Source of the DNA: the human T2T-CHM13v2.0 reference genome, Homo sapiens
Assembly (NCBI RefSeq): GCF_009914755.1
Contig: NC_060929.1
Direction: 5' to 3' (one strand)
Length of the DNA: 64,000 bases
Shown: piece by piece, positions 14,936 through 16,095 of the stretch
Numbering within the stretch: position 1 is the stretch's first letter
Layout: each line of letters starts with the position of its first letter
Made by a program: the position numbers and the translations under genes
Notes under the pieces: model-generated
Database searches by the model: none
Seen by the model: only the letters and a program-made list of their open reading frames with translations
Told to the model about the DNA's origin: nothing

Positions 14936-15368
14936 CTATGTGCCAGGCATTGCTCCAGGAGCCCCATCATAAGAATAGCCCTGGCTCATAGTGAGTGAGT
15001 AAAACTGAGCTGTTTGCCAGTCACATGATTTATGTCATTCAGTCCTGAGCTGGGCCCTATTTTATTAGTTAGGGATGCTTTGGGCTGCAAATAAGGGGAA
15101 ACTCTGTGAACAGCAGCTTTAATCAGACTGGTGTTTATTTTATTTTATTTTATTTTTTGAGGCGGAGTCTCACTTTGTCCCCCAGGCTGGAGTGCAGTGG
15201 CGCGATCTTGGCTTGCTGAAACCTCCGCCTCCCAGGTTCAAGCGATTCTCCTGCCTCAGCCTCCCAAGTAGCTGGGACTACAGGTGCGTGTCACCATGCC
15301 CAGCTAATTTTTGTATGTTTAGTAGAGACAGGGTTTTACTATGTTGGCCAAGATGGTCTCGATCTCTT

Positions 15369-15693
15369 TTTTTTTTTTTTTTTTTTTTTTTTGAGATGGA
15401 GTTTTGCTTTTGTTGCCCAGGCTGGAGTGCAATGGCATGATCTCAGCTCACCGCACCCTCCACCTCCACCTCCCCCTCCCCCTCCCAGGTTCAAGCGATT
15501 CTCCTGCCTCAGCCTTCCCAAATAGCTGGGATTATAGGCATGTGCCACCAAGCTCCGCTAATTTTGCATTTTTAGTAGAGATGGGGTTTCTCTGTGTGGA
15601 TCAGGCTGGTCTGGAACTCCTGACCTCAGGTGATCCGCCCACCTTGGCCTCCCAAAGTGCTGGGATTACAGGTGTGAGCCACCGCGCCCGGCC
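15369..15693 (-). mobile_element. Full-length AluSp, the 3' part of the tRNA-Alu chimera
   Basis: AluSp-type marks (gctcaccgca, gtttctc, caatggc, ttgttgccc); about 25-nt poly-T; intact GGCCGGGCGCGG 5' end at 15693. Confidence 0.9.
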
Positions 15694-15706
15694 AAAGGAC
15701 TGCTGC

Positions 15707-15778
15707 CTCCTCCTCAGGGAATCGAACCCCAGTCTCCCGCGTGACAGGCGGGGATACTCACCACTATACTGATGAGGA
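15707..15778 (-). tRNA. tRNA-Asp(GTC) retrocopy / probable pseudogene
   Basis: Reverse complement TCCTCATCAGTATAGTGGTGAGTATCCCCGCCTGTCACGCGGGAGACTGGGGTTCGATTCCCTGAGGAGGAG (72 nt). It differs from the canonical human Asp-GTC by 6 substitutions. Anticodon GTC and B-box GGTTCGATTCC are intact; U8 is changed to C, the acceptor stem has an A-G mismatch, and there is no encoded CCA. Confidence 0.95.
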
Positions 15779-16095
15779 CGACAGTCTTGATCTCTTGATG
15801 TCGTGATCTTCCCGCTTCGGCCTCCCAGAGTGCTGGGATTGCAGGCATGAGCCACCGCACCCAGCCTCCAAATTACCTTTTTAAACAAGCTTTTTCTTAT
15901 AAAATGTTCACTGTAATCTATTAAAAGTAAAAGGCAAAATACAAGTTAATGTTAACGTTTTGATCAAAATTATTTCAAAACTAAAGAAATAACATTTTGA
16001 AAATTTAATCTTAGTTTTACTTCAATGAGATATTTAATACCTGAAATTCCAGTGCTTAATGTCCATTTAATTTCCAAAGAAAAGAATTGGCATTG

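What the first reader, a model, noticed from the sequence alone, without database searches (positions are those of the whole stretch)
15356..15796. Chimeric pre-tRNA-Asp-AluSp retro-insertion inside a single TSD, splitting an AluSc
Seen, minus strand 5' to 3': TSD (15796-15784), leader TGTCG (15783-15779), 72-nt tRNA-Asp(GTC) (15778-15707), trailer GCAGCAGTCCTTT (15706-15694), full-length AluSp starting GGCCGGGCGCGG (15693), poly-A, then TSD (15368-15356). The TSD GTCTYGATCTCTT has a single CpG-type mismatch, and the host AluSc resumes exactly across it. No separate TSD surrounds the Alu alone, so tRNA and Alu arrived in one L1-mediated event. Leader, UUU-ended trailer and no CCA indicate an unprocessed Pol III precursor, not mature tRNA. 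Known: U6-L1 and other small-RNA chimeras form by template switching or RtcB ligation, and tRNA-plus-7SL dimeric SINEs exist in galago and rodents. Inference: either pre-tRNA/Alu RNA ligation or template switching, or a copy of a source locus where a tRNA-Asp gene read through a weak terminator into an Alu, i.e. a nascent tRNA-Alu composite SINE. I do not know whether this chimera has been described.
Basis: partly seen in the sequence, partly recalled or inferred. Interest (0 to 1): 0.82.

Follow-up and report, generated by a model that had tools for sequence, protein, structure and literature searches.

The report
Unprocessed tRNA-Asp fused to Alu retrocopy
An unprocessed aspartate-tRNA transcript and a complete Alu were pasted into the genome as one piece by the LINE-1 machinery, and about eleven similar tRNA-precursor/Alu fusions lie elsewhere in the human genome.

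Summary
On the minus strand, one 13-nt target-site duplication (15796-15784 / 15368-15356, one CpG-type mismatch) encloses a 5-nt leader, a 72-nt tRNA-Asp(GTC), a 13-nt trailer ending in TTT, a full-length Alu and a poly-A tail. The whole insert splits an older Alu.

Leader, tRNA and trailer match only the tandem tRNA-Asp-GTC array on chr1 (22 copies, 81 of 90 bases). The match stops exactly at the Alu junction, and those genes have no Alu downstream. No second copy carries this junction.

So this is a single LINE-1-mediated event that joined a primary Pol III pre-tRNA to Alu RNA. Template switching from the Alu RNA 5' end onto the U-tailed precursor is the most likely route. It is not a composite SINE family.

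Beyond the brief, whole-genome scans found 11 more pre-tRNA::Alu fusions (Asp x3, Tyr x2 with introns, Lys, Leu, Cys, Glu, Gly, probable Ile), most within one duplication. A matched scan found no mature CCA-ended tRNA fused to Alu.

This is a new partner pair for a known mechanism.

The parts
15784..15866 (-). Left (5') piece of the host Alu, ending in the 5' TSD copy
   Evidence: aligns to positions 1-85 of a full-length Alu ruler. Sequence read.
15784..15796 (-). 5' target-site duplication, AAGAGATCAAGAC
   Evidence: 12 of 13 bases identical to the 3' copy. Its last C could also be the first leader base (1-nt ambiguity against the source CCGTCG).
15779..15783 (-). 5' leader of the pre-tRNA, TGTCG
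   Evidence: the chr1 array genes have CGTCG immediately upstream. The one difference is a CpG C-to-T change.
15707..15778 (-). tRNA-Asp (anticodon GTC) retrocopy, 72 nt, no CCA
   Evidence: ARAGORN. Rfam tRNA 45.0 bits, gathering score 29. 6 differences from the chr1 array gene, 3 of them CpG transitions.
15694..15706 (-). 3' trailer of the pre-tRNA, GCAGCAGTCCTTT, ending in a T run
   Evidence: 11 of 13 identical to the chr1 array trailer GCAGCCGTGCTTT(TT). The trailers of the other 9 Asp genes and variants read are unrelated.
15393..15693 (-). Full-length Alu body starting at its first base (GGCCGGGCGCGG), with an 18-nt GGAGG-type expansion in the right arm
   Evidence: Rfam 7SL-type matches at 15576-15692 and 15391-15558. 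Alignment. 7 CpG left.
15369..15392 (-). Poly-A tail (24 A) of the chimeric insert
15356..15368 (-). 3' target-site duplication, AAGAGATCGAGAC
15134..15368 (-). Right (3') piece of the host Alu with its A-rich tail
   Evidence: alignment resumes at ruler position 75. Rfam 7SL-type match 15157-15304.

Best explanation
This is a chimeric retrocopy made in one LINE-1-driven insertion, probably tens of millions of years ago (AluS-era divergence; inferred). Shown: one target-site duplication inside an older Alu encloses a primary, unprocessed transcript of a chr1-array tRNA-Asp-GTC gene. That transcript has its 5' leader, no CCA, and a trailer ending in the terminator U-run. It is joined head-to-tail to the first base of a complete, poly-A-tailed Alu. 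Inferred mechanism: L1 ORF2p nicked the host Alu and primed on the Alu RNA poly-A. It copied the Alu RNA to its 5' end. It then jumped to the 3' end of a nuclear, U-tailed pre-tRNA-Asp, or to a short homology just past its terminator, and copied that to its 5' end before the cDNA was joined to the target. The pre-tRNA has no poly-A of its own, so it could only be inserted by riding on the Alu. The copy is a neutral fossil. It did not found a family.
For: 1. Anatomy and a single TSD splitting one host Alu.

2. Source. Leader, tRNA and trailer are 81 of 90 identical to the chr1 array genes, and 4 of the 9 differences are CpG transitions. In 20 of the 22 array copies the genome alignment ends at the last trailer T; in the other two it runs 5 bases on by chance similarity. 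No Alu lies downstream in the source.

3. No other locus carries this junction: 0 of 38 non-self matches.

4. The structure recurs. There are 11 more loci with a tRNA plus trailer ending in a T run, directly followed by the Alu 5' end on the same strand. Ten have tool-supported tRNAs (ARAGORN; Rfam). Eight have a readable single TSD. Reversed-pattern controls gave 0 hits against 3, 19 and 11.

5. The partners are precursors. Two tRNA-Tyr copies keep their introns (93 nt by ARAGORN; 88-nt Rfam match). The Cys copy matches its chr17 source at 98% through leader and trailer. The Glu copy matches the Glu-CTC gene of the same chr1 array.

6. In the scan that did not require T at the junction, 5 of 5 tRNA-bearing hits had a T run there. 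A matched scan for CCA-ended tRNA abutting Alu gave 1 hit, and it is not a tRNA.

7. The events are independent. The four Asp chimeras have different trailers and their Alus fall in different variant groups.

8. Against ligation. Moldovan 2019 (PMC6789731, passages read) shows RtcB joining needs a 2',3'-cyclic phosphate and a 5'-OH, and that a 3'-OH or a 5'-triphosphate strongly reduces it. From established knowledge, not tested here, a nascent pre-tRNA ends in UUU-OH and a full-length Alu RNA starts with a triphosphate.
Against: Template switching versus prior RNA ligation is not shown by any sequence feature. Both give the same DNA.

The trailer differs from today's array at 2 of 13 positions, both transversions. 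The T run is 3 here against 5 (or 4 in two copies) in the array, so the exact source copy is not identified.

The source continues GGGCCGCC after its T run, which resembles the Alu start GGCCGGGC. The jump may therefore have landed on a read-through transcript at a short homology rather than on a U-tailed end. The Glu case looks like that: source CTTCGTTGGCTCTG against chimera CTTCTGGCTGGGCG.

The Cys copy lacks 6 bases of its source trailer, and the chr8 Tyr trailer matches its source only in part.

Most scans demanded an Alu 5' end at the junction, so 'always full-length Alu' is partly built into the search. The target site TC/AAGAG is only a loose match to the TT/AAAA preference. No orthologous empty site could be examined.
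Confidence: 0.7

Rival explanations
1. RNA ligation first. A pre-tRNA-Asp and an Alu RNA were joined end to end by a cellular RNA ligase (RtcB or another), and the chimeric RNA was then retrotransposed as one template.
For: U6/L1 chimeric RNAs form this way, and U6 also ends in a U run (PMC6789731). That paper also questions how ORF2p would switch to an RNA ending in poly-U. In the Cys chimera the Alu lacks its first G, which a trimmed 5' end could explain.
Against: RtcB needs a 2',3'-cyclic phosphate and a 5'-OH; a 3'-OH or a 5'-triphosphate strongly reduces joining. In 11 of 12 chimeras the Alu starts at its first base, where the RNA should carry a triphosphate (established knowledge), whereas ligated L1 partners are variably 5'-truncated. 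This count is biased by search patterns that required the Alu 5' end.
Confidence: 0.17
2. Read-through composite element. A tRNA-Asp gene with a weak terminator lay next to an Alu at some source locus. Pol III read through, and the composite transcript retrotransposed, making a nascent tRNA-Alu SINE.
For: TTT is a weak stop, and the B box is intact in the copy. The Leu chimera's trailer runs through a T5 to a second T4, so read-through does occur. Composite part-7SL, part-tRNA SINEs exist in galago and tree shrew (PMC3575423).
Against: None of the 22 array genes, nor the other Asp genes read, has an Alu at the junction. 0 of 38 non-self matches share the junction. The 12 chimeras have 12 different trailers and mixed Alu types. 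An Alu inserted beside a gene would bring its own TSD between the T run and its first base, and none is seen in the chimeras read.
Confidence: 0.07
3. Two sequential insertions. A tRNA retropseudogene and an Alu landed next to each other at different times.
For: Nested insertions are common in Alu-rich DNA. Three further Alu-type matches lie within about 700 bp.
Against: Only one TSD pair exists and it brackets both parts. The second insertion would have had to hit the exact boundary and leave no TSD of its own. The same exact architecture recurs at 11 other loci.
Confidence: 0.03

Closest known systems
U6/L1 and U6/Alu chimeric retrocopies (Buzdin 2002, 2003; Garcia-Perez 2007; Doucet 2015, PMC4476161, passages read)
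   Same: A complete small nuclear Pol III RNA ending in its U run is fused in sense to a poly-A-bearing retroelement copy. One TSD brackets the whole and the target is L1-type. PMC4476161 states that U6/Alu chimeras were reported but are rare and were not reproduced experimentally.
   Different: The 5' partner here is a tRNA precursor with leader and trailer (and intron, in the Tyr cases), not a mature snRNA. The 3' partner is a full-length Alu rather than a 5'-truncated L1. The Buzdin and Garcia-Perez papers were not held, so I could not check whether they list any tRNA partner.
tRNA/LINE-1 chimeras (Law and Burns 2026, PMC13174262, passages read)
   Same: tRNA-derived sequence co-inserted with a retroelement within one TSD.
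   Different: Those 21 cases are mostly tRNA halves in antisense to the L1 and are attributed to twin priming. Here the tRNAs are whole precursors in sense orientation, joined to Alu. That study catalogued LINE-1 partners (including 452 Alu/L1 chimeras), not Alu-led chimeras. Its supplementary tables were not read.
Pre-tRNA and tailless tRNA retropseudogenes (Schmitz et al. 2004, known to me only through citing passages in PMC4476161, PMC2912911 and PMC3747384)
   Same: L1-mediated retrocopies of nuclear, unprocessed tRNA. This was taken as evidence that the template is recruited in the nucleus.
   Different: The tailless class lacks an A tail and is usually 3'-truncated. Two such Asp copies were seen in passing (L034, L035). 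Here the precursor is complete to its U run and gets its A tail from the attached Alu. The paper itself was not held, so a prior mention of Alu-linked copies cannot be excluded.
Composite part-tRNA, part-7SL SINEs of galago and tree shrew (PMC3575423, passage read; SINE definitions in SINEBase, PMC3531059)
   Same: A tRNA-derived Pol III head is followed by a 7SL-derived module and an A tail. This is the architecture such a chimera would seed.
   Different: Those are families with many copies. [quoted passage not shown] This junction is a single copy.

Membership tests
L1-mediated chimeric retrocopy (two RNAs joined, one integration) | Two RNA-derived parts fused head-to-tail in the same orientation | tested here: met
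   tRNA, trailer and Alu are all on the minus strand and contiguous.
L1-mediated chimeric retrocopy (two RNAs joined, one integration) | One target-site duplication bracketing the whole, and none around either part | tested here: met
   13-nt TSD, 12 of 13 identical. The host Alu is collinear across it.
L1-mediated chimeric retrocopy (two RNAs joined, one integration) | Poly-A only at the 3' end of the 3' partner | tested here: met
   24 A at 15392-15369. No A run lies between the tRNA and the Alu.
L1-mediated chimeric retrocopy (two RNAs joined, one integration) | L1 endonuclease-type target (TT/AAAA-like) | tested here: inconclusive
   The site reads TC/AAGAG, pyrimidines then purines, only a loose match.
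L1-mediated chimeric retrocopy (two RNAs joined, one integration) | The parts derive from separate loci | tested here: met
   The source Asp genes have no Alu at the junction.
Composite tRNA-7SL SINE family | tRNA-derived head plus 7SL-derived body plus A tail | tested here: met
Composite tRNA-7SL SINE family | Many copies sharing the same junction (SINEBase: at least 100 per genome) | tested here: not met
   0 of 38 non-self genome matches share the junction. The other 11 chimeras each have a different trailer.
Composite tRNA-7SL SINE family | Pol III transcription from the tRNA head through the body | not testable with these tools
   The B box is intact and only TTT separates the parts. Position 8 of the tRNA is changed. 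No expression data were available.
Functional tRNA-Asp gene | Cloverleaf and model score | tested here: met
   ARAGORN. Rfam 45.0 bits against a gathering score of 29.
Functional tRNA-Asp gene | Native sequence and native gene context with a run of four or more T as terminator | tested here: not met
   6 substitutions, including tRNA positions 6, 8, 66 and 68. Only TTT follows. The copy lies inside a TSD within an Alu.
Tailless tRNA retropseudogene (Schmitz type) | No A-rich tail, usually 3'-truncated tRNA | tested here: not met
   The tRNA is complete with its trailer, and an A tail is supplied by the Alu.
RtcB-ligated chimeric RNA retrocopy (U6/L1 type) | 5' partner with a 2',3'-cyclic phosphate and 3' partner with a 5'-OH, typically a variably truncated 3' partner | not testable with these tools
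   RNA end chemistry cannot be read from DNA. The Alu partner starts at its first base, which argues against a cleaved 5'-OH end.

The most novel reading that the evidence does not exclude
Pre-tRNA::Alu chimeras may be an uncatalogued, genome-wide class numbering dozens of loci. They would record ORF2p jumping, inside the nucleus, from the 5' end of Alu RNA onto nascent U-tailed Pol III precursors and never onto the far more abundant mature CCA-ended tRNAs. The class would then be a natural data set that separates template switching from RtcB ligation. It would also show the first step by which part-tRNA, part-7SL composite SINEs are born. The chr5 copy, with an intact B box and only TTT before the Alu, would be one such unsuccessful seed.
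Probability: 0.4. Interest if true: 0.6.

Novelty: new member of a known kind. Interest (0 to 1): 0.5.

Why it matters
The locus itself is a neutral fossil in an intron of a lncRNA, and nothing suggests a function. Its value is mechanistic.

First, it captures an RNA that exists only briefly and only in the nucleus. That RNA is a primary tRNA transcript with leader, trailer and, in sister cases, an intron. This supports the view that the second template is picked up at the integration site.

Second, the junction joins a U-run 3' end to the first base of a Pol III transcript. Those are poor substrates for the RtcB route shown for U6/L1. A census of such junctions therefore bears on the open question of ligation versus template switching.

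Third, it shows that the raw material for tRNA-7SL composite SINEs, known from galago and tree shrew, is generated repeatedly in the human lineage without taking off.

Fourth, the retrocopies preserve old states of fast-evolving tRNA gene flanks.

Tried and rejected
1. Composite SINE family. Rejected: no second copy of the junction, and the four Asp chimeras have different trailers and Alu variant groups.

2. Mature tRNA partner. A scan for B box, then 9-13 bases, then CCA, then the Alu 5' end gave 1 hit (chr19:4.00 Mb). Rfam finds no tRNA there and it does not read as one.

3. A mismatch-tolerant scan (2 mismatches) gave 1413 hits, almost all noise. I used it only as a pointer to three loci that I then fetched and read. 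The other 1313 unlisted hits were not examined.

4. False positives among pattern hits:
- 14 of 19 carry no tRNA. Several look like MIR-type B-box matches by eye.
- 3 of 11 are not chimeras: chr12:12.84 Mb is a plain Alu with its own TSD GACTTTTT; chr7:109.69 Mb is Alu-internal sequence; chr9:27.07 Mb has no tRNA.
- Two chr1 16.46/16.54 Mb hits with a 3' end that I recall as tRNA-Asn-like, seen only in the listing, have 16 more bases after a T4 before the Alu. I did not count them.

5. My trailer-scoring script used a deprecated end-gap setting, so its scores are unreliable. I use only its listing of gene flanks and simple position-by-position counts.

6. Source genes for the chr7, chr3 and chr9 Asp trailers. 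No convincing match among the Asp genes read; the best is chr7 against a chr12 gene, 11 of 15 ungapped by eye.

7. Literature.
- 'tRNA-Alu': 0 papers.
- 'Alu chimera' plus tRNA: 1 paper, on U6.
- 'fused to Alu' plus tRNA plus retro: 0 papers.
- A six-term search: 0 papers.
- One search was badly posed and useless.
- Schmitz 2004, Buzdin 2003 and Garcia-Perez 2007 were not held.
- PMC10680173, PMC5470649, PMC5322556 and PMC5059674 held nothing relevant.

9. Orthologue check in other primates: not possible, because the genome tool holds no relatives of this assembly.
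Full report
**1. What is there**

Read on the minus strand, the window holds the following, in order:
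- the left part of an Alu, 15866-15784, ending in AAGAGATCAAGAC (15796-15784)
- TGTCG (15783-15779)
- a 72-nt tRNA (15778-15707)
- GCAGCAGTCCTTT (15706-15694)
- an Alu that begins at its first base, GGCCGGGCGCGG (15693) and runs to 15393
- 24 A (15392-15369)
- AAGAGATCGAGAC (15368-15356), which continues directly into the rest of the first Alu and its A-rich tail (to about 15134)

ARAGORN calls the tRNA as Asp, anticodon gtc. Rfam's tRNA model gives 45.0 bits against a gathering score of 29, and 7SL/Alu-type matches lie on the same strand on both sides.

I used the inserted Alu as a ruler. The left host piece covers positions 1-85 and the right host piece resumes at position 75. The host is therefore one Alu, split with 11-13 bases duplicated. 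The two duplicate copies differ at one CpG-type position.

The subfamily names AluSp and AluSc fit what I recall of diagnostic positions, but no repeat library was available to test them.

**2. Where the tRNA part came from**

The window's own genome could be searched. I used 121 bases spanning the end of the TSD, the leader, tRNA and trailer, and the first 14 Alu bases. This gave 39 matches:
- the locus itself
- 22 copies in a tandem array at chr1 160.58-160.73 Mb
- 16 others

Only the array copies align beyond the tRNA on both sides. Nineteen align over query 19-107 at 91%, one over 20-107, and two over 19-112. Query 19-107 is the leader through the last T of the trailer. The alignment stops where the Alu begins.

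Read out, the array gene is ..CCGTCG | tRNA | GCAGCCGTGCTTTTT GGGCCGCC... No Alu lies downstream of it. The other Asp genes and variants have unrelated trailers.

Position by position, the chimera differs from the array gene at 9 of 90 bases. Four are CpG transitions: leader base 1 and tRNA positions 6, 48 and 63. Five are other changes: tRNA positions 8, 66 and 68, and trailer positions 6 and 9.

Each 7.4-kb array unit also carries Glu-CTC, Gly-TCC and Leu-CAG genes.

A side observation concerns the two trailer positions where the chimera disagrees with today's array. At both, it agrees with the trailer of a tRNA-Gly-GCC locus on chr16 (GCAGCAGACCTTT, 12 of 13). The array may therefore have changed after the copy was made. 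That is inference only.

**3. One event, not two, and not a family**

No direct repeat brackets the Alu alone or the tRNA alone. The only duplication brackets both parts. A second insertion would have had to hit the exact boundary and leave no duplication of its own.

None of the 38 non-self matches carries the same trailer-Alu junction. So there is no evidence that this composite was ever copied again.

**4. The same architecture recurs**

The search also returned two other dispersed Asp copies whose alignment ran on into Alu sequence. I then scanned the whole genome for a tRNA B box, a gap, and the Alu 5' end:
- 3 hits.
-, with no T required at the junction: 19 hits.
- 11 hits.
- The reversed-pattern controls gave 0 each time.
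-, mismatch-tolerant: 1413 hits, mostly noise, used only as a pointer.

I read the loci, and checked them with ARAGORN and Rfam. This gave eleven more chimeras in which a tRNA and its trailer are directly followed, on the same strand, by an Alu that starts at its first or second base.

| Locus | tRNA and tool support | Trailer | TSD and other notes |
|---|---|---|---|
| chr7:134.82 Mb | Asp (ARAGORN; Rfam 32.3 bits) | GCAAAGTGTTACTTT | about 10 of 12 |
| chr3:187.46 Mb | Asp (ARAGORN) | GCTGTTGATGATGCTTT | not found |
| chr9:87.06 Mb | Asp (ARAGORN) | GCTAATAATGTTT | lies in another Alu's A tail, not resolvable |
| chr1:204.74 Mb | Lys-TTT (ARAGORN) | TCCTATTTT | AATACAGGCAGG, 12 of 12 |
| chr2:218.73 Mb | Tyr with intron (ARAGORN, 93 nt) | GACAAGTACAGTTTT | 10 of 11 |
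| chr8:66.12 Mb | Tyr with intron (Rfam 43.0 bits over 88 nt; ARAGORN missed it) | ACACCTTTGTTT | AAAAAGCCAGTCC, 13 of 13 |
| chr11:113.57 Mb | Leu-TAA (ARAGORN) | runs through a T5 to a second T4 | about 9 of 10 |
| chr4:126.81 Mb | Cys (ARAGORN) | CTGTGCTCTGGAGTTTT | 12 of 13; CpG-rich, so a young Alu |
| chr1:7.46 Mb | Glu (Rfam 34.2 bits) | GCCTTCCTTCT | 12 of 13 |
| chr6:143.45 Mb | Gly-GCC (Rfam 44.6 bits) | ACATGGCATCCCATTTT | 12 of 12 |
| chr17:8.11 Mb | 5'-truncated tRNA-like piece | ATGGTAAAACTTT | no tool supports it; the isotype (Ile) is from my recall |

False positives are listed under Tried and rejected.

**5. The partners are primary transcripts**

The two Tyr copies keep introns.

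The Cys copy matches a chr17 tRNA-Cys gene at 98% from its 5-nt leader through the trailer. That match ends in the T run.

The chr8 Tyr copy matches a chr8 Tyr gene through leader, intron and part of the trailer at 87%.

The Glu copy matches the Glu-CTC gene of the same chr1 array that supplied the Asp partner.

In the one scan that did not demand T at the junction, all 5 tRNA-bearing hits nevertheless had a run of 3-4 T there.

A matched scan for mature, CCA-ended tRNA abutting an Alu start gave a single hit, and it is not a tRNA. Mature tRNA is far more abundant than precursor (established knowledge). Its absence therefore points to selection of nuclear, U-tailed precursors.

For Asp, whose copies were found by homology rather than by pattern, all 4 dispersed copies that keep a trailer are joined to an Alu. 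The other two dispersed copies are 3'-truncated in the anticodon loop and have no tail. This fits the idea that a precursor without poly-A can only be inserted whole by riding on a poly-A-bearing template.

**6. Independent events**

The twelve trailers all differ. In an alignment of the twelve Alu parts, the four Asp chimeras do not share private variants. They fall into different variant groups that look like different Alu subfamilies. Two of them, chr5 and chr3, share a group but have different trailers.

**7. Mechanism**

Shown:
- a single integration
- a precursor partner from a separate locus
- a junction at or next to the terminator T run and at the first base of the Alu

Inferred: ORF2p primed on the Alu poly-A, reached the Alu RNA 5' end, and continued on a pre-tRNA.

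The alternative is prior RNA ligation, which is demonstrated for U6/L1. It needs a 2',3'-cyclic phosphate and a 5'-OH. In that study a 3'-OH or a 5'-triphosphate strongly reduced ligation (PMC6789731, passages read). A nascent pre-tRNA ends in UUU-OH and a full-length Alu RNA begins with a triphosphate (established knowledge, not tested here). On that basis I favour template switching, at about 0.7 against 0.17.

Three details argue for caution:
- The source continues GGGCCGCC after its T run, which resembles the Alu start. The T run is 3 here against 5 or 4 in the array.
- In the Glu case the source has no T run at the junction but shares TGGCT with the Alu start. Some jumps may therefore land on read-through trailers at short homologies rather than on the RNA end.
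- The Cys copy lacks 6 bases of its source trailer.

**8. Comparison with what is known**

The kind is known. These are L1-mediated chimeric retrocopies with a nuclear small RNA at the 5' side and a poly-A retroelement at the 3' side.
- tRNA/L1 chimeras were reported in 2026, but as antisense halves attributed to twin priming (PMC13174262).
- Pre-tRNA retropseudogenes are cited from Schmitz 2004.
- Composite part-7SL, part-tRNA SINEs exist in galago and tree shrew (PMC3575423). A SINE family needs many copies (PMC3531059), which this junction lacks.

I found no description of pre-tRNA::Alu chimeras in four targeted searches. However, Schmitz 2004, Buzdin 2003 and Garcia-Perez 2007 were not held. 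No supplementary tables were read.

**9. Verdict**

This is a new partner pair within a known mechanism, and one of a recurrent class.

Age is inferred only from divergence: about 10% in the tRNA part, and 7 CpG left in the Alu. That suggests tens of millions of years. No function is suggested. Interest is moderate.

Noticed in passing
L031 (chr7:134.82 Mb), L032 (chr3:187.46 Mb), L036 (chr9:87.06 Mb), L040 (chr1:204.74 Mb), L060 (chr2:218.73 Mb), L064 (chr8:66.12 Mb), L067 (chr11:113.57 Mb), L069 (chr17:8.11 Mb), L070 (chr4:126.81 Mb), L071 (chr1:7.46 Mb), L072 (chr6:143.45 Mb): Eleven further pre-tRNA::Alu chimeras: Asp x3, Lys-TTT, Tyr x2 with introns, Leu-TAA, a probable 5'-truncated Ile, Cys, Glu and Gly-GCC. 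The scans were narrow (one B-box form and a near-consensus Alu start), so the true number is probably larger.
   Followed up: partly
L070 (chr4:126,812,480-126,813,060, minus): The tRNA-Cys::Alu chimera looks young. The tRNA, leader and trailer are 98% identical to a chr17 gene, and 19 CpG are left in the Alu. The Alu lacks its first G and has an internal duplication and deletion. The trailer lacks 6 bases present in today's source gene.
   Followed up: partly
L071 (chr1:7.46 Mb) against L002:460-590 (chr1 array Glu-CTC gene): At the Glu chimera junction the source trailer has no T run but shares TGGCT with the Alu start. This suggests a homology-guided jump onto a read-through transcript. The array Glu gene shows no run of four T within about 40 bases downstream.
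   Followed up: partly
L033:851-875 (chr16:76.60 Mb): A tRNA-Gly-GCC locus has the trailer GCAGCAGACCTTT, 12 of 13 identical to the chr5 chimera's Asp trailer and closer than today's Asp array (11 of 13). Several array genes share a ..GACCTTTT trailer motif. This may reflect common ancestry of the flanks or an older state of the array.
   Followed up: partly
L034 (chrX:18.56 Mb) and L035 (chr2:216.68 Mb): Two tRNA-Asp copies stop in the anticodon loop (..CTGTCAC) and have no A tail. They look like the tailless retropseudogenes described by Schmitz 2004. L034 seems to keep a short leader resembling that of the chr1 array.
   Followed up: no
L002-L023 (chr1:160.58-160.73 Mb): This assembly holds 22 tandem copies, about 7.4 kb apart, of a unit carrying tRNA-Glu-CTC, Gly-TCC, Asp-GTC and Leu-CAG. 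The Asp terminator varies between copies: T5 in most, T4 in two.
   Followed up: partly
window 15455-15485, minus strand: The inserted Alu carries an 18-nt expansion of GGAGG-type repeats in its right arm, relative to the host Alu.
   Followed up: no
chr1:16,456,702 and chr1:16,543,070 (listing only): Two duplicated loci show a tRNA-like 3' end (Asn-like by my recall). It is followed by a T4, 16 more bases and then an Alu start. This is probably ordinary gene neighbourhood in a segmental duplication. Not fetched.
   Followed up: no
L064 (chr8:66.12 Mb) and L075 (chr8:66.54 Mb): The chr8 Tyr chimera lies only about 0.4 Mb from its best-matching source gene. This may be coincidence.
   Followed up: no
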